From NCBI GenBank assembly GCA_016840095.1, contig JAEOSZ010000111.1:77258-101257 (forward strand): DNA of 24,000 bases. Reading direction: 5' to 3'. Below are positions 11,030 through 15,490 of the stretch, piece after piece; within the stretch, counting starts at the first letter, position 1, and each line of letters starts with the position of its first letter. The notes under the pieces were generated by a model, which made no database searches, was not told the DNA's origin, and was given only the letters and a program-made list of their open reading frames with translations. The position numbers and the translations under genes are program-made. This stretch comes from Candidatus Heimdallarchaeota archaeon (GTDB taxonomy: Archaea > Asgardarchaeota > Heimdallarchaeia > Heimdallarchaeales > Heimdallarchaeaceae).

Positions 11030-12196
11030 TTACAAGCAAACCATATCTTTTGGGGTATTTGATAATCGAATTACACCATCTTTAGTAACAACACAATCAT
11101 CTTCTAAACGAATACCAAAATCTCCAGCAAAGTATAAACCAGGTTCTACAGTTATTACAGAGTTTTCAAGTAATTCTTTAGCAGGTCTTTCTGGATAAGC
11201 TCTATAAATACCCACTCCGATATCATGTGTCTCAATACCAATTGGGTGACCTGTTGAGTGAATATACAACTTCTCATGATCATATCCATATTCTTCAAAC
11301 TTATCTCGAACTGCCATTTCTACATCATGAGAAGAAACTCCTGCTCTAATTTTTGTGTATGCAGCTTCTTTTGCTTCATGTACAGCTTCATGTGCTCTAA
11401 GAACTTCTTCTTTTGGTTTGTTACCTATCCAATATGTGTGAGTAATGTCTGAATTAGACATCTCGTAGGCTACTCCATAATCAATTAAAAGCACTTGATT
11501 TTTCTCTATCTTCCCTGTTCCTGCTTTATGGTGAGGTATAGCTGCATTTGGTCCTGATGCTACAATGGGCTCAAAAGCTACTCCCCCTCTTTTGTTACAT
11601 TCAAATTCTATTATAGCTGCTAATTCTTTTTCAATCATACCAGGTTTGATTAAAGGTTCAATAACCTCTTCCATCAATTCTTCAGCTAGCTTAGCAGCAA
11701 TTTTGTGGTTCTCAATTTCCTTTTGTGTTTTAACAGCTCTTACATCAAAAATGATATCTTTAGCAGAAACATAATTTAGATTTTTGTTCATACTAGTTAA
11801 CGCATTAAAAGTTCCACTGGTTAATATATCAGAACTAAATTTTGAAAATACTTCACTAGCCTCAACGTAATTTAATGCAACTGTGGATTTATCTAAGAAA
11901 CCATTGAATAAATTCTGTACTAGCTCTGTTAATTCACTACCTTTTTTGTATGCTTTGACTTCGTAAATTTCTTCATCTACTAGCATTGCTTCCATCTGAG
12001 ATGTTATAACTGATGGTTTTCCTCTCTTAGGAATCAGAGTCAAAGTTGGTGATGCAAACCATTTTTCTAGTAAATATTTTTGGTGTATATCGTATGAATG
12101 GTGGCAAAATACTATCCATCCATCTACATTATGATTGTCTAAAACTGCTTGAATTCTATCAATTTTTTCACTCAAAATCCACACATTCCTTAACAA
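11030..12196 (-). CDS. M24-family Xaa-Pro aminopeptidase/dipeptidase
   Basis: The pita-bread metal ligands are in order: LIDYGVAYEMSNSDITHTY (D, D), HSTGHPIGIETHD (H), VEPGLY (E), IRLEDD (E). The start is uncertain: TTG at 12196, GTG at 12184 or TTG at 12175. All three overlap the cofC stop at 12168-12170. Confidence 0.85.
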   Translation of the reverse strand: MLRNVWILSEKIDRIQAVLDNHNVDGWIVFCHHSYDIHQKYLLEKWFASPTLTLIPKRGKPSVITSQMEAMLVDEEIYEVKAYKKGSELTELVQNLFNGFLDKSTVALNYVEASEVFSKFSSDILTSGTFNALTSMNKNLNYVSAKDIIFDVRAVKTQKEIENHKIAAKLAEELMEEVIEPLIKPGMIEKELAAIIEFECNKRGGVAFEPIVASGPNAAIPHHKAGTGKIEKNQVLLIDYGVAYEMSNSDITHTYWIGNKPKEEVLRAHEAVHEAKEAAYTKIRAGVSSHDVEMAVRDKFEEYGYDHEKLYIHSTGHPIGIETHDIGVGIYRAYPERPAKELLENSVITVEPGLYFAGDFGIRLEDDCVVTKDGVIRLSNTPKDMVCL

Positions 12197-12788
12197 TTTG
12201 TTTAATGTTATCCGGTAAATAATCGTTCTTTTCTAAATCTATTAAATCTTTAAATTTGTCTATATCACTGTATGCGTTTTTACTTTCTAAAATCTCAAAT
12301 GATAATTCAAGTTTCTCAAATACATCTCTAAATCTTAAAGCAGAGTTCTTACCAAAAACTAATGGGAAAGTGTCTCCTTTATTGAAAATCAAAATACTAG
12401 TTCCATTGTCCTTAGTAGGTCCAAGTAGTATTTTCCTCTCATTATAATTCTTATCAAGAATAAATTGTAAATCTTCGGATTTAATTAAAGGTAGATCTGC
12501 CATAACAACAGTAATTATATCTTCTTGAATCTCCTTGAAGGCTTCATTTAATGATTCATTTAATTCATCCCCCTTGTCATGAAGTATAGAGAAATATCCT
12601 GAAAAATCTAATTTTTTCTTTTTTGTAAGGATATACAAATTTGCATCATGTTCAAGTTTAGCAATTTCATCTATTAGATTCTGAGTCATATGATGAAGCA
12701 GTTTTTCAACCGATGAATCTTTTAAACTGGATCGTAATCTACTCTTATCGTTTATTGTTCCTCTGTATGGTATTATTATTGCTTTCAT
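12168..12788 (-). CDS. cofC: 2-phospho-L-lactate (or PEP) guanylyltransferase, F420 biosynthesis
   Basis: MKAIIIPYRGTINDKSRL matches the CofC N-terminus (M..iIPv....KSRL). LNESLNEAFKEIQEDIITVVMADLPLIKSEDLQFIL aligns with remembered M. jannaschii CofC LNNAIKQAFEEIEDEEVIIIPADIPLIKKEDIEEIL. Confidence 0.7.
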   Translation of the reverse strand: MKAIIIPYRGTINDKSRLRSSLKDSSVEKLLHHMTQNLIDEIAKLEHDANLYILTKKKKLDFSGYFSILHDKGDELNESLNEAFKEIQEDIITVVMADLPLIKSEDLQFILDKNYNERKILLGPTKDNGTSILIFNKGDTFPLVFGKNSALRFRDVFEKLELSFEILESKNAYSDIDKFKDLIDLEKNDYLPDNIKQIVKECVDFE

Positions 12789-13578
12789 CAGCTATTCTTC
12801 CAGTATAATCTGATACTAAATATTGCATAAATTCTGGGTTTTGCATTAGTGGTCTAGCAACAGAAGCTGCTTTTGCTCCTGCTTTTAGCATTGTATGAAT
12901 GTCATTTATTGTTCGAACTGAGTTATTTCCTATTATTGGGATATCCGTTAATTCTACAAATTTTCTAATTATTTTAATGTTAGCTCTTTTTTGACCTGGT
13001 AACATAGCATCAACATGAATGTAGGAAATAGAATAATCTTCCAAAATCTTTGTTAGACCAGAATAATCACCAATAATATGTCCTCGAATTTTTATTCCTA
13101 GGGGAAAAGAGGGTAATAGTTTTCTTATCGAATCAAGCAGAGTTTCAAGTTTTTCAGGTTTTAAAAGTAAATTATGCCCACCATTAATTTTTAGAATCTC
13201 TTCTTGTCTACAATGAGCATTAATTTCTACAATATCAACAAACTTTGTGACTTCATTTAGCCATACTTCAGAAAAATAATCTGCATTTATGAGTCGCACA
13301 TTGAAACTAACTAGTTGATGATTAGTCTGTTTCTCTAAATTTAGGTTTTCTAAACACCATGATTTAACTTGATCAACTTTGAATTGGAGGAGGAATTCAT
13401 CTCTACCTCTTTCTATCATTCTTGTTGTGGTTAGATGTGATTCACGGTCTATTGAAAATCCTCCTAGTGTTACCATTCCTGCTCCATAATTTAGAATCTT
13501 TTGGCAAAAAGCTCCATCTGAAATTCCTGCTATAGCTGATTGAACAATTGGTGGTATAAATCTAGGATTTGCACTCAA
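12745..13578 (-). CDS. DUS-like (NifR3/dihydrouridine-synthase-related) FMN-type TIM-barrel oxidoreductase lacking a C-terminal helical domain
   Basis: Collinear with Dus motifs: SAIAGISDGAFCQKILNYGAGMVTLGGFS (LAPMAGVTD..FR.....GAGL...EM), VEINAHCRQEEI (IDIN.GCP), LGIKIRG (KxR), IHVDAML (HGRT), IPIIGNNSVRTINDIHTMLKAGAKAASVARPLMQNP (IPVIANGDI.s.eDa......GaDgVMiGRgal.nP). It is only 277 aa. It starts at a TTG at 13578, 8 nt downstream of an SD-like AGGGGGT. Confidence 0.6.
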   Translation of the reverse strand: MSANPRFIPPIVQSAIAGISDGAFCQKILNYGAGMVTLGGFSIDRESHLTTTRMIERGRDEFLLQFKVDQVKSWCLENLNLEKQTNHQLVSFNVRLINADYFSEVWLNEVTKFVDIVEINAHCRQEEILKINGGHNLLLKPEKLETLLDSIRKLLPSFPLGIKIRGHIIGDYSGLTKILEDYSISYIHVDAMLPGQKRANIKIIRKFVELTDIPIIGNNSVRTINDIHTMLKAGAKAASVARPLMQNPEFMQYLVSDYTGRIADESNNNTIQRNNKR

Positions 13579-13584
13579 GATAGT

Positions 13585-14511
13585 TTACCCCCTATTTAGG
13601 ATAAATGATGCTAGATTTTTTGATATACCTTTTTCATTGAATAAGATATTCTGTGTTATTACTTCTAAGTTTGTTTCATTTTCTATATCTTTCCTGAAAT
13701 TTCCGTCCGATTCATGAATAATTATTGTGGAACAAACATCTTTGTAGAGCCTAGCAATACCTAAAGGAGATACCTCAAGTCCTTTTGCTTTCATCAGATT
13801 TTCTGTTGGTCCGCTTATTGGCTTATCCCCTATAATTGGACTGATAGCTATACATTTACTCTTATTCTTTTCGAGTGTTTCTCTTATTGCGGATACATCT
13901 AATATTGGTCCTATGCTGGTTATGGGATTACTTGGGCCTATAATTATTGTATCAGAGTTAACCAATTCTTCTTGTGCAGAACGAGAAAAAATAGCATTTT
14001 CCACATTTCTTACATAGATATTCTTTATTTCTGTTTCTCCTTTATGTTTAACCCAAAATTCCTGGAAGTGAATATCTTCATCGTTGTTTGTAACTATACG
14101 CGTTTCAATGTGGTTTTCTGAACTTGGATAGATTTTACTTCTTATTCCTAACTTGTTTATTAAAGAATTAATTATTGAAGACTGGTTCTTTCCGTTCTGC
14201 ATTTCAAATGTTCTGAAAATATGCAAACCTAAATCTTTGTCTCCTAATCTGAACCATGTATCTATTCCATATCTGTTTAGAGCATTTAATGTATTGAAGG
14301 ATTCATCCTTTACGCCCCAATATTTTTCAACATCTAGTAATTCACTGAAAAGATAGAGTATTGTGTCGATATCTGGTGAAACATATAATCCATAGATCCA
14401 GATATTATCAGCTGAATTTGCAATAATAGCTAGTTTATCATCATTAATAATTTCTCTGAATCCTTGTATTAGTTTAGGGGTTCCTGTTCCTCCAGATAGG
14501 AAAGTAATCAT
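13585..14511 (-). CDS. cofD: LPPG:FO 2-phospho-L-lactate transferase, F420 biosynthesis
   Basis: 308 aa. The N-terminus MITFLSGGTGTPKLIQGF matches the CofD signature (vLSGGTGtpKLl.Gl). Also has the later IIGPSNPITSIGPIL and ISPIIG motifs. Confidence 0.85.
   Translation of the reverse strand: MITFLSGGTGTPKLIQGFREIINDDKLAIIANSADNIWIYGLYVSPDIDTILYLFSELLDVEKYWGVKDESFNTLNALNRYGIDTWFRLGDKDLGLHIFRTFEMQNGKNQSSIINSLINKLGIRSKIYPSSENHIETRIVTNNDEDIHFQEFWVKHKGETEIKNIYVRNVENAIFSRSAQEELVNSDTIIIGPSNPITSIGPILDVSAIRETLEKNKSKCIAISPIIGDKPISGPTENLMKAKGLEVSPLGIARLYKDVCSTIIIHESDGNFRKDIENETNLEVITQNILFNEKGISKNLASFILNRG
13587..13593 (-). promoter_or_regulatory. Shine-Dalgarno-like element (AGGGGGT) preceding the TTG start of the DUS-like gene
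   Basis: The minus-strand sequence reads AATAGGGGGTAAACTATCTTG. The purine-rich element overlaps the cofD TAA stop and is spaced 8 nt from the TTG at 13578. This fits translational coupling. Confidence 0.35.
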
Positions 14512-14539: not shown

Positions 14540-15490
14540 TTATTTTTTAGCTGTCTTCTTTGCAGTTGTTGTCTTCTTTGCAGTTGTTGTCTTCTTTGCA
14601 GTTGTTGTCTTCTTTGCAGTTGTTGTCTTCTTTGCAGTTGTTGTCTTCTTTGCTGCTGTAGTTTTTGGTTTAGCTGTAGTTTTTGTTGCTGTTGTCTTCT
14701 TTGCAGTTGTTGTCTTCTTTGCTGCTGCTGTCTTTGGTTTAGCTGTAGTTTTTGTTGCTGTTTTAGCTTTAGTCTCTGGTTTTGTCTCCTCTTTTTGTTT
14801 TTCTGGAGTTTCCTTAGGTTTTACTGGTGCAGTTTTCTTTGGTAGTTTTTTCTTGGGAGTTCCTGTTTCCACCAATCGTAATCTAGAAGTTGATTTTATT
14901 ACAACTCTATAGTAGGAACCATTTTCTCCCATATCTGGGTTTCGAACGATTTTGATAACATCACCAGGTTTTGCTTGTATTGCTTTTACTGCAGCATCAG
15001 TTTCTAGTATCTTTGGTATTTGATGTTTCTGAATCTGATATCTTTCCAAGAATCCTTTTATGTCTCTAGTTCTGAGCTTAACATGCTGACGAACTAGTTG
15101 ATGCTCAAAGATATTAAACAATGGATTAGTGCTACTAATAATTTCAATTCCTAATTTTACAGATTCCTTTTTTGCATAATGTGTTAATGGGGATTCTGCA
15201 ATTAGTAAGGCTTCATCTAGTTCCTCTTCTTCTTGTAATTTACCTAGAAGTCTGATTAATTTCACACCAATTTGAGGATTTTTTGGGAATCGTGCAATAG
15301 CTGTTACTGTTTCTTTTTCCTCACTAAGCTTCTTAGCATATACATCTAGAAAATCATCGTCTTCTTTTGTATCACTAATCTTAAATCCTCTAAACTCAAG
15401 AATTTCCTTAACTCCATCCACAATCCTCTTTTCCTTGGCTTTTTGTTCCTTAGAAGACAAGTAAGTTACCTCGGCATCCTTAATAATCAA
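14540..15490 (-). CDS. rpoH: RNA polymerase subunit Rpb5/RpoH homologue with three parts: Rpb5-N-like domain (aa 1-125), RpoH/Rpb5-C core (aa 126-198), and a Lys/Thr/Ala/Pro tandem-repeat tail (aa 199-316)
   Basis: The core NIFEHQLVRQHVKLRTRDIKGFLERYQIQKHQIPKILETDAAVKAIQAKPGDVIKIVRNPDMGENGSYYRVV matches the RpoH/Rpb5-C consensus (HxLVPxH..l..eE...LL..Y.i...QLP.I...DPva...g.k.GdVvKI.R.S.taG....YR.V). See findings for the N-terminal similarity. The start is a TTG at 15490. There is no in-frame ATG in the first 180 codons, so the exact start is uncertain. Confidence 0.8.
   Translation of the reverse strand: MIIKDAEVTYLSSKEQKAKEKRIVDGVKEILEFRGFKISDTKEDDDFLDVYAKKLSEEKETVTAIARFPKNPQIGVKLIRLLGKLQEEEELDEALLIAESPLTHYAKKESVKLGIEIISSTNPLFNIFEHQLVRQHVKLRTRDIKGFLERYQIQKHQIPKILETDAAVKAIQAKPGDVIKIVRNPDMGENGSYYRVVIKSTSRLRLVETGTPKKKLPKKTAPVKPKETPEKQKEETKPETKAKTATKTTAKPKTAAAKKTTTAKKTTATKTTAKPKTTAAKKTTTAKKTTTAKKTTTAKKTTTAKKTTTAKKTAKK
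14549..14771. repeat. Coding tandem repeat: 18-bp unit GCAGTTGTTGTCTTCTTT in 5 perfect head-to-tail copies, nested in a 68-69-bp higher-order duplication
   Basis: Perfect copies lie at 14562-14579, 14580-14597, 14598-14615, 14616-14633 and 14634-14651, with a sixth at 14703-14720. Block 14634-14702 is repeated with a few changes at 14703-14770. On the minus strand this encodes (KKTTTA)n. Confidence 0.9.

What the first reader, a model, noticed from the sequence alone, without database searches (positions are those of the whole stretch)
12168..14511. Truncated DUS-like FMN TIM-barrel gene wedged between cofD and cofC: candidate missing redox step in F420 side-chain synthesis
Seen in sequence: the order is cofD, a 277-aa DUS/NifR3-like TIM barrel, then cofC. 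The first junction has a 6-nt gap with an SD-like AGGGGGT and a TTG start. At the second junction the genes overlap by 44 nt. This tight packing fits co-translation. The protein keeps the Dus-like FMN/active-site motif order, including a Cys in INAHC. It ends right after the barrel, so it lacks the roughly 70-aa helical tRNA-binding domain of true Dus enzymes. Established knowledge: the Dus/DHOD-type fold reduces C=C bonds conjugated to carbonyls. In bacteria that feed PEP to CofC/FbiD, the product dehydro-F420-0 has an enolpyruvyl group that must be reduced, and in mycobacteria the nitroreductase-like FbiB C-domain does this. In archaea the source of 2-phospho-L-lactate is, to my knowledge, not genetically settled. 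Inference: this barrel could be a non-homologous dehydro-F420-0 (or enolpyruvyl intermediate) reductase. An archaeal NifR3-related family of unknown function exists, as far as I recall.
Basis: partly seen in the sequence, partly recalled or inferred. Interest (0 to 1): 0.6.

Follow-up and report, generated by a model that had tools for sequence, protein, structure and literature searches.

The report
Candidate missing reductase for archaeal F420
A small flavin enzyme that databases label an archaeal "tRNA dihydrouridine synthase" sits between the coenzyme F420 genes cofD and cofC in this Heimdall-group archaeon and stays next to cofD across three archaeal phyla, so it is a specific, testable candidate for the unassigned step that makes the lactyl part of F420 in archaea.

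Summary
The minus strand carries cofD (13585-14511), a 277-aa Dus/DHOD-like FMN barrel (12745-13578) and cofC (12168-12788), with the stated 6-nt gap and 44-nt overlap.

The middle gene belongs to the uncharacterised MJ0144 family (TIGR00736). It keeps the Dus FMN residues and catalytic Cys but has its own invariant ExNxHCRQxE motif. The genome also holds a separate canonical Dus.

Family members lie directly after cofD in Asgard archaea, Halobacteria and Methanomicrobia-like genomes, and one gene further in Methanobacteriales.

Among 102 cofD-positive Asgard genomes:
- 34 carry this gene after cofD.
- 52 carry the known nitroreductase-type dehydro-F420-0 reductase, 50 of them directly before cofD.
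- None carries both.

On a CofD tree this split needs only one change, so it counts as one replacement event.

Many cofD-positive genomes have neither enzyme, and a congeneric genome holds only a deletion remnant. The step is therefore not universal.

My best reading (about 0.55) is an FMN/Cys ene-reductase that converts the enolpyruvyl group (PEP, EPPG or dehydro-F420-0) to L-lactyl. No paper searched links this family to F420. This scan has reached the same idea before on other genomes.

The parts
13585..14511 (-). cofD (2-phospho-L-lactate transferase), 308 aa
   Evidence: TIGR01819 311 bits over the cut-off, PF01933 155 bits
13587..13593 (-). SD-like AGGGGGT overlapping the cofD stop, 9-15 nt upstream of the TTG start of the DUS-like gene
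   Evidence: read directly from the sequence
12745..13578 (-). MJ0144-family Dus/DHOD-like FMN TIM-barrel protein, 277 aa, the candidate enolpyruvyl reductase
   Evidence: TIGR00736 178.7 bits, PF01207 40.4 bits; AF2 pLDDT 93.9 and pTM 0.90; top Foldseek matches are DusB 6ei9, TM0096 1vhn and DHOD B
13198..13227 (-). Family signature E118-I-N-A-H-C123-R-Q-E-E127; Cys123 (codon 13212-13210) aligns with the catalytic Cys of Dus (NxGCP)
   Evidence: invariant in 82 family members; profile alignment to DusB and TM0096
12168..12788 (-). cofC (2-phospho-L-lactate/PEP guanylyltransferase), 206 aa; its first 44 nt overlap the DUS-like gene
   Evidence: TIGR03552 108 bits over the cut-off, PF01983 77 bits; start confirmed by relatives
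11030..12196 (-). M24-family (prolidase/creatinase-like) gene overlapping the cofC end by 29 nt; a conserved neighbour whose membership of the unit is uncertain
   Evidence: PF00557 178 bits; follows cofC in the Heimdall family and in L022, L086, L095 and L090

Best explanation
The 277-aa protein is an FMN-dependent ene-reductase of the F420 side-chain branch. It uses the Dus/DHOD mechanism. Reduced FMN delivers a hydride to the terminal methylene carbon (C3) of an enolpyruvyl group. The conserved Cys123 then protonates C2, giving the (S)-lactyl group. The invariant Arg/Gln/His residues that replace the Dus motif are proposed to hold the carboxylate and phosphate. The substrate is either dehydro-F420-0, the product of CofC and CofD acting on PEP (the postulated archaeal 'CofX'), or PEP/EPPG before transfer, which would supply 2-phospho-L-lactate or LPPG. 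Shown here: the gene order and tight packing, the fold, the conserved FMN and Cys residues, the neighbourhood conservation and the distribution. Inferred: the substrate, the direction of the reaction, the electron donor, and any physical coupling with CofC/CofD.
For: (1) Neighbourhood. In 80 species-representative loci, every Asgard locus with enough flank has cofD directly upstream of the DUS-like gene. cofC follows directly in most of them and about 1.9 kb downstream in the Borrarchaeia loci L018 and L022. The Jord/Frey lineages have cofE-cofD-DUS-cofC. Methanobacteriales have cofE-cofD-arfA-DUS. In a 151-genome Asgard sample, 33 of 34 DUS-like genes lie 50-110 nt downstream of cofD, and the gene was found in none of the 49 genomes without cofD. 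About 25 Halobacteriota genomes also have cofD followed by the DUS-like gene. These include Haloferax namakaokahaiae and Natrinema longum, organisms that to my knowledge do not use methanopterin. (2) Replacement. In 52 other cofD-positive Asgard genomes an FbiB-C/FbiE-type nitroreductase (TIGR03553, 75-175 bits) lies next to cofD: directly upstream in 50 and within 1.4 kb in 2. No genome has both enzymes. (3) Chemistry. The AF2 model is a confident TIM barrel nearest to DusB, TM0096 and DHOD B. Cys123, K163, H188, N218/N219 and R242 align with the Dus catalytic Cys and FMN-site residues. (4) Not the RNA Dus. G000 has a separate Dus with the canonical NLGCP/KLR/HAR/ANGDI motifs (PF01207 153 bits against 39-40 bits here). 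All 101 sampled Methanobacteriota genomes carry exactly one family member, and hyperthermophiles such as M. jannaschii (control genome) and a Methanopyri MAG (L069) also carry one. D is rare or absent in tRNA of hyperthermophilic archaea (PMC7668247). (5) G000 has the rest of the pathway: cofE, cofG/H, cofC and cofD. It has no strong FbiE-type enzyme; the best hit is 45 bits on another contig. (6) The gap is real. The lactate kinase 'CofB' has never been identified, and an archaeal dehydro-F420-0 reductase 'CofX' has been postulated but not found (PMC6450877, PMC8498797, PMC8764529). No paper searched mentions MJ0144 or links Dus-like proteins to cofD.
Against: There is no biochemical or genetic evidence of any kind. 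On a CofD tree the nitroreductase-linked CofDs form one clade (SH-aLRT 100), and the DUS/NTR state needs only one change. The mutual exclusion is therefore a single replacement event, possibly of a whole module, and not many independent trials. The gene is dispensable for keeping cofC/D/E. Sixteen of 102 cofD-positive Asgard genomes and 41 of 118 cofD-positive Halobacteriota genomes show neither reductase. The 'neither' label needs at least 5 changes on the CofD tree. The congeneric genome G115 keeps only a deletion remnant between cofD and cofC, yet retains cofE and cofG/H. Archaeal CofC/CofD pairs tested in vitro prefer 2-PL/LPPG (PMC8764529), which fits a dehydro-F420-0 substrate poorly, although it fits a PEP-to-2-PL reductase. 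White's laboratory reported lactate incorporation and a GTP-dependent lactate kinase activity in extracts (my recollection, and cited). In Archaeoglobi the gene is not near cof genes. In ANME-2/Methanocellales it sits next to CitG-like/DUF447 genes and is fused to the methanogenesis marker 9 domain, so other roles remain possible.
Confidence: 0.55

Rival explanations
1. It is a genuine RNA (tRNA) dihydrouridine synthase, as most records annotate it, and its position next to cofD is coincidental.
For: It passes the Pfam Dus gathering score (40.4 against 20.4 bits). The catalytic Cys and FMN residues align with Dus, and the nearest solved structures are DusB, TM0096 and DusC. NCBI names relatives 'tRNA-dihydrouridine synthase'.
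Against: The genome has a separate Dus with canonical motifs that scores 153 bits. The family signature ExNxHCRQxE, HxDxM, GNNS differs from Dus NxGCP, HxR, NGD in all 82 members. It has no helical RNA-binding domain. In the tree the canonical Dus sits on a branch of 8.5 substitutions per site. The gene was found only in cofD-positive genomes in the Asgard sample (34 of 102 with cofD, 0 of 49 without). It is present in hyperthermophilic methanogens, where D is rare or absent (control, L069).
Confidence: 0.07
2. It is a flavin oxidoreductase for another cofactor-related step and not for enolpyruvyl reduction. Candidates are a step in the riboflavin/FO precursor branch (adjacent to arfA), a methanopterin biosynthesis reduction (adjacent to CitG-like/DUF447), or a methanogenesis-marker-9-linked redox function. 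Under this reading it clusters with cofD only because C1-cofactor genes travel together.
For: In about 47 Methanobacteriales loci GTP cyclohydrolase III (arfA) lies directly upstream, with atwA and Mmp9 downstream. In ANME-2, Methanocellales and Mnemosynella the gene is fused to the Mmp9 domain and followed by CitG-like and DUF447 genes. Many F420 producers lack it.
Against: It sits between cofD and cofC with overlapping or abutting reading frames in Asgard lineages. cofD followed by the DUS-like gene is also found in Halobacteria, which do not make methanopterin and have no Mmp9 fusion. G000 has no methenyl-H4MPT cyclohydrolase in an 89%-complete genome. Loss coincides with gain of the nitroreductase-type dehydro-F420-0 reductase next to cofD. 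CitG-like/DUF447 also sit next to cofD where the DUS-like gene is absent (L103, L107), so that adjacency is not specific to the DUS-like gene.
Confidence: 0.22
3. It is a proofreading or repair enzyme and not a main-line step. Archaeal CofC/CofD mainly use 2-phospho-L-lactate from another source, but leak some PEP into dehydro-F420-0, which this enzyme reduces. This is a variant of the best explanation and explains why the gene is dispensable.
For: In vitro, CofC enzymes turn over PEP at 3.5-30% of total, and M. jannaschii CofD has relaxed specificity towards EPPG (PMC8764529). The gene has been lost repeatedly without loss of cofC/D/E.
Against: It is universal and single-copy in 101 of 101 Methanobacteriota genomes, and it has stayed translationally coupled within the operon over long evolutionary distances. 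Both suggest more than a repair role. No source of 2-PL has been identified.
Confidence: 0.1

Closest known systems
MJ0144 family 'RNA dihydrouridine synthase-like protein' (NCBIfam TIGR00736, nifR3_rel_arch; hypothetical equivalog, function untested)
   Same: It is the best full-length match (positions 1-226 of 231). The protein shares the invariant ExNxHCRQxE, KxR, HxDxM, GNNS and SxAR motifs, has the same length class, and groups with Heimdall members inside the family tree.
   Different: It scores 178.7 bits, below the curated 218.7-bit cut-off, which was tuned on methanogen members. The Heimdall clade is a divergent branch. The family has no assigned function.
tRNA dihydrouridine synthases (Dus; PF01207, COG0042; e.g. 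E. coli DusB 6ei9, T. maritima TM0096 1vhn)
   Same: Both are FMN TIM barrels. The catalytic Cys sits in the same loop, and the Lys, His, Asn and Arg of the FMN site align. Both would reduce a C=C bond conjugated to a carbonyl.
   Different: About 16% identity. The active-site loop is NAHCRQ where Dus has NxGCP. There is no C-terminal helical domain. The gene sits in an F420 operon, and a separate canonical Dus exists in the same genome.
FbiB C-terminal domain / stand-alone FbiE (nitroreductase-fold dehydro-F420-0 reductase of Actinobacteria, Thermomicrobia and Lokiarchaeia; TIGR03553)
   Same: The proposed reaction is the same, with FMNH2 reducing the enolpyruvyl group of dehydro-F420-0. Both genes lie next to cofD, and their distributions in 102 cofD-positive Asgard genomes do not overlap.
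   Different: The fold is unrelated (nitroreductase dimer against TIM barrel). The position is the opposite side of cofD. No activity has been shown for the DUS-like protein.
MurB (UDP-N-acetylenolpyruvoylglucosamine reductase) and class 1 dihydroorotate dehydrogenase / dihydropyrimidine dehydrogenase
   Same: MurB performs the same chemistry, flavin hydride to C3 of an enolpyruvyl ether followed by protonation at C2 (established knowledge). DHOD and DPD share the barrel and the Cys general acid, and DHOD B is among the top fold matches.
   Different: MurB uses FAD on a different fold. DHOD and DPD act on pyrimidines, and the DHOD family scores here are only 22-27 bits.

Membership tests
MJ0144 family (TIGR00736) | Whole-protein HMM score at or above the curated cut-off (218.7 bits) | tested here: not met
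   178.7 bits, E 1.2e-52, covering 226 of 231 model positions. Other Heimdall members also fall below the cut-off, while Jord/Borr/Sif and methanogen members reach 200-390 bits.
MJ0144 family (TIGR00736) | Family-invariant residues (E118 N120 H122 C123 R124 Q125 E127 K163 R165 H188 D190 M192 N218 N219 R242) | tested here: met
   All are present in the window protein and invariant in 82 aligned members.
MJ0144 family (TIGR00736) | Placement inside the family clade, apart from canonical Dus | tested here: met
   The tree of 87 members plus the genome's canonical Dus puts the window protein in a Heimdall clade (SH-aLRT 97), with the outgroup on a branch of 8.5.
tRNA dihydrouridine synthase (Dus, PF01207) | Pfam gathering score and FMN TIM-barrel fold | tested here: met
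   40.4 bits against a 20.4-bit cut-off. Foldseek top hits are DusB, TM0096 and DusC, E 5e-11 to 1e-8, TM about 0.6.
tRNA dihydrouridine synthase (Dus, PF01207) | Catalytic Cys and FMN-site Lys/His/Asn/Arg | tested here: met
   Cys123, K163, H188, N218/N219 and R242 align with the DusB and TM0096 residues.
tRNA dihydrouridine synthase (Dus, PF01207) | C-terminal helical RNA-binding domain | tested here: not met
   The match stops at model position 225 of 311. The model has one helix (250-268) after the barrel and then a disordered tail. The genome's canonical Dus (256 aa) is also short, so this feature is weakly diagnostic here.
tRNA dihydrouridine synthase (Dus, PF01207) | Forms dihydrouridine in RNA | not testable with these tools
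   This needs a deletion with RNA mass spectrometry, or an in vitro assay.
FbiB-C / FbiE dehydro-F420-0 reductase (TIGR03553, nitroreductase fold) | Nitroreductase fold and sequence homology | tested here: not met
   No nitroreductase family was among the reported matches (E <= 0.001). The fold is a TIM barrel. It would be an analogue, not a member.
FbiB-C / FbiE dehydro-F420-0 reductase (TIGR03553, nitroreductase fold) | Encoded next to cofD/fbiA, and the only such reductase in the genome | tested here: met
   The DUS-like gene lies 6 nt after cofD. The best nitroreductase hit in G000 scores 45 bits on another contig. None of 102 cofD-positive Asgard genomes has both.
FbiB-C / FbiE dehydro-F420-0 reductase (TIGR03553, nitroreductase fold) | Reduces dehydro-F420-0 to F420-0 with FMNH2 | not testable with these tools
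   This needs enzyme assays with LC-MS.

The most novel reading that the evidence does not exclude
The enzyme reduces phosphoenolpyruvate (or CofC-bound EPPG) to 2-phospho-L-lactate (or LPPG). On this reading the long-sought 'CofB' step in archaea is a flavin-dependent reduction of PEP and not a lactate kinase. That would reconcile the two conflicting models: PEP is the metabolic entry point, while archaeal CofC/CofD prefer 2-PL. In class II methanogens the fused Cys-rich 'methanogenesis marker 9' domain would be its electron-input module, which would give that orphan marker protein its first function.
Probability: 0.25. Interest if true: 0.85.

Novelty: new variant of a known kind. Interest (0 to 1): 0.7.

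Why it matters
F420 is the central hydride carrier of methanogenesis and anaerobic methane oxidation. It also matters in Asgard and haloarchaeal metabolism. The origin of its lactyl group in archaea has been unresolved since about 2001: the lactate kinase was never found, and a reductase was postulated in 2019.

A named, widespread gene family now makes the question directly testable with standard assays. If confirmed, four things follow:
- It would complete the archaeal pathway.
- It would correct the 'tRNA-dihydrouridine synthase' annotation on at least 599 species-representative genomes.
- It would provide a second case of non-homologous enzymes for one F420 step.
- It would offer an alternative part for heterologous F420 production.

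Tried and rejected
- **Literature.** Searches for MJ0144, for Dus together with F420 and cofD, for CofX, and for methanogenesis marker protein 9 found nothing that assigns the family.
- **Independence of the exclusion.** I hoped the DUS/nitroreductase exclusion would reflect many independent switches. The CofD tree shows a single change, so I downgraded that evidence.
- **DUF763 as a third analogue.** It follows cofD in several DUS-less Halobacteriota genomes. It is enriched there (33 of 41 against 12 of 77), but it co-occurs with the DUS-like gene in Archaeoglobi-like genomes and occurs in Sulfolobus, which lacks cofD. It is therefore not a clean substitute.
- **Methanopterin role.** Rejected as the general explanation. 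Halobacteria keep cofD followed by the DUS-like gene, and G000 lacks Mch.
- **Thermoproteota locus.** L024 carries that NCBI label but lies in the same genome as G076 of the Asgard sample, so I have no TACK evidence.
- **DHOD, HisF, IMPDH and FabK assignments.** Rejected on scores of 20-38 bits, far below the cut-offs.
- **Ligand docking.** Model coordinates are not exposed to the scripting box, so pocket and ligand analysis could not be done.
- **The 'Ca. H. archaeon' CofC/D pair of Hasan et al.** It is Hydrothermarchaeota, not Heimdall.

Full report
**Observation**

The ORF list gives three consecutive minus-strand genes:
- 13585-14511 (308 aa)
- 12745-13578 (277 aa, TTG start)
- 12168-12788 (206 aa)

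Profile searches identify the outer two as cofD (TIGR01819, 311 bits, over the cut-off) and cofC (TIGR03552, 108 bits, over the cut-off).

The middle protein matches Pfam Dus weakly (40.4 bits, model positions 54-225 of 311). It matches NCBIfam TIGR00736, 'MJ0144 family RNA dihydrouridine synthase-like protein', over its full length (178.7 bits, below the 218.7-bit cut-off).

The sequence shows the cofD stop at 13587-13585, six bases, then TTG. AGGGGGT lies at 13593-13587. The cofC ATG at 12788 lies 44 nt inside the middle gene.

The organism is a Heimdall-group Asgard archaeon. The assembly is 3.44 Mb and 89% complete.

**The protein**

An 82-member alignment has these invariant residues: E118, N120, H122, C123, R124, Q125, E127, K163, R165, H188, D190, M192, N218, N219 and R242.

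A profile search of PDB sequences aligns Cys123 of NAHCRQ with the catalytic Cys of DusB and TM0096 (NxGCP). KIR aligns with the Dus KxR, and the GNNS and ARP segments align with the FMN-phosphate site.

The AlphaFold model is confident (mean pLDDT 93.9, pTM 0.90). It is a TIM barrel followed by a single helix. Foldseek ranks DusB, TM0096, DHOD B and DusC first.

So this is a Dus/DHOD-type flavoenzyme with the Cys general acid. It has its own active-site signature, rich in Arg/Gln/His, and no RNA-binding domain.

The same genome encodes another Dus with canonical NLGCP, KLR, HAR and ANGDI motifs (PF01207, 153 bits). In a family tree that canonical Dus sits on a very long branch outside all 87 family members.

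**Neighbourhood conservation**

A motif-based scan of species-representative genomes found at least 599 carriers. The best 80 loci were examined.
- Every Asgard locus with enough flank (Heimdall, Frey/Jord, Borr, Sif, 'Promethearchaeota') has cofD directly upstream of the DUS-like gene, with gaps of -35 to +53 nt.
- cofC follows directly in most of them. In the two Borrarchaeia loci (L018, L022) it lies about 1.9 kb downstream.
- Frey/Jord lineages also have cofE directly upstream of cofD.
- About 45 Methanobacteriales loci have cofE-cofD-GTP cyclohydrolase III-DUS-like-atwA-Mmp9.

In a 151-genome Asgard sample, 34 genomes have the gene. In 33 of them it lies 50-110 nt downstream of cofD. The gene was found in none of the 49 genomes without a cofD match.

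In a 121-genome Halobacteriota sample, 77 have the gene, and about 25 show the same cofD-then-DUS-like arrangement. These include Haloferax namakaokahaiae and Natrinema longum.

All 101 sampled Methanobacteriota genomes have exactly one copy.

The family tree follows taxonomy. The linkage to cofD is therefore old and has been maintained across phyla.

**Replacement by the known reductase**

I searched the same Asgard sample with the FbiB C-terminal nitroreductase model. The result was bimodal.
- 54 genomes have a 75-175-bit hit. In 50 of them it lies directly upstream of cofD, and in 2 within 1.4 kb. Some are fused to CofE, as reported for Lokiarchaeum (PMC6450877).
- The 2 other genomes with a strong hit (G033, G039) gave no cofD match. 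In G039 the hit lies at a contig end.
- All other genomes have only hits of 66 bits or less, elsewhere in the genome.

None of the 54 has the DUS-like gene, and none of the 34 DUS-like genomes has a strong nitroreductase hit. Of 102 cofD-positive genomes, 34 have the DUS-like gene, 52 have the nitroreductase, 0 have both and 16 have neither.

This is the pattern expected for non-homologous enzymes doing the same job. However, a CofD tree places all nitroreductase-linked CofDs in one clade (SH-aLRT 100). The state needs only one change, so the evidence amounts to one replacement event, perhaps of a whole module.

**Evidence that limits the claim**

- The 'neither' state is common: 16 Asgard genomes and 41 of 118 cofD-positive Halobacteriota genomes. 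No adjacent nitroreductase was found in any Halobacteriota genome.
- On the CofD tree the 'neither' label needs at least five changes.
- In the congeneric genome G115 the locus is syntenic with the window. Only the first 36 or so codons, joined to the last 15 or so, remain between cofD and cofC.
- G115 and G097 still have cofE, cofG/H, cofC and cofD.
- In Archaeoglobi the gene is not near cof genes.
- In ANME-2, Methanocellales and Methanomicrobia-like genomes the gene carries a C-terminal 'methanogenesis marker 9' domain (TIGR03277, 164 bits). In the ANME-2, Methanocellales and Mnemosynella loci it is followed by CitG-like and DUF447 genes.

**Against a methanopterin role**

Three points argue against this as the general explanation:
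- the Halobacteria arrangement of cofD followed by the DUS-like gene;
- the absence of Mch in G000;
- the fact that CitG/DUF447 also sit beside cofD in genomes without the DUS-like gene.

**Literature**

Reviews and primary papers agree on the following:
- The lactate kinase 'CofB' has never been identified.
- Bashiri et al. postulated an unidentified archaeal dehydro-F420-0 reductase, 'CofX'.
- Hasan et al. re-established 2-PL as the preferred substrate of archaeal CofC/CofD in vitro.

No paper searched mentions MJ0144 or links a Dus-like protein to cofD.

Dihydrouridine is rare or absent in tRNA of hyperthermophilic archaea (PMC7668247). The family is nonetheless present in M. jannaschii and in a Methanopyri MAG.

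**Mechanism proposed**

Reduced FMN transfers a hydride to C3 of an enolpyruvyl group. Cys123 then protonates C2 to give the L-lactyl group. This is the chemistry MurB performs on a different fold, and that Dus and DHOD perform on uracil and orotate.

The substrate stage is unresolved.
- Equivalence with FbiE and the gene order favour dehydro-F420-0.
- The 2-PL/LPPG preference of archaeal CofC/CofD favours PEP or EPPG.

The electron donor is unknown. The Mmp9 fusion suggests a dedicated input module in class II methanogens.

**Earlier notes of this scan**

The same idea was reached before on at least seven other genomes, four of them with follow-up reports that agree. I formed my reading before that look-up. 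I add two results of my own:
- the quantified nitroreductase complementarity, with its reduction to one event on the CofD tree;
- the repeated-loss data.

I have not seen whether the earlier follow-ups ran these tests.

**Verdict**

Confidence in the reductase role is about 0.55. It is a new functional variant within a known fold. Interest is high because a long-standing pathway gap becomes directly testable.

Noticed in passing
L118:3611-4717 (P0135); L033:3281-4417; L073:7035-8177; L038:12561-13028: In ANME-2, Methanocellales and Methanomicrobia-like genomes the MJ0144-family barrel is fused to a C-terminal Cys-rich 'methanogenesis marker 9' domain (TIGR03277, 164 bits). In about 40 Methanobacteriales loci Mmp9 is a separate 155-aa gene downstream of atwA. 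This Rosetta-stone link gives the orphan marker protein a partner.
   Followed up: partly
L092:5925-6107 (genome G115, same genus): A locus syntenic with the window carries only a deletion remnant of the DUS-like gene between cofD and cofC. The first 36 or so codons are joined to the last 15 or so. G097 has lost the gene completely. Both genomes keep cofE, cofG/H, cofC and cofD.
   Followed up: yes
window 11030-12196 (-): An M24-family (prolidase/creatinase-like) gene overlaps the cofC end by 29 nt. The same arrangement follows cofC in the Heimdall family and in three other Asgard families (L022, L086/L095, L090). It may be functionally linked to F420, or it may be conserved synteny only.
   Followed up: partly
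L099:4909-6009, L100:4917-6014, L101:2871-3968: DUF763 (PF05559, 452 bits) lies directly after cofD in several Halobacteriota genomes that lack the DUS-like gene. Among cofD-positive genomes it is present in 33 of 41 DUS-less and 12 of 77 DUS-positive ones, but it is not exclusive.
   Followed up: partly
L083:5944-6861, L084:3977-4897, L093:868-1782, L094:1574-2500: In a sister family of the same order, which has cofD but neither the DUS-like gene nor the nitroreductase, a conserved 305-aa protein lies directly upstream of cofD. It has no Pfam match and contains a GPHRGH motif.
   Followed up: partly
window 14540-15490 (-); L086:5932-6507: The RNA polymerase subunit H gene has an N-terminal Mrr_cat-like (Rpb5-N-like) domain and lies directly upstream of cofD. 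A 191-aa version sits in the same place in another Asgard family. This scan has already reported it (e1-2476126).
   Followed up: no
L112:1411-2181 (G000:C163): The genome's canonical Dus, with NLGCP, KLR, HAR and ANGDI motifs, is only 256 aa. It too lacks most of the helical tRNA-binding domain.
   Followed up: no
L103:4897-6304, L107:4918-6341, L073:8156-9576: CitG-like and DUF447 genes, linked to methanopterin biosynthesis in methylotrophs as far as I recall, sit directly after cofD or after the DUS-like gene in several Halobacteriota genomes. G000 also has a CitG-like gene (C25) despite lacking Mch.
   Followed up: partly
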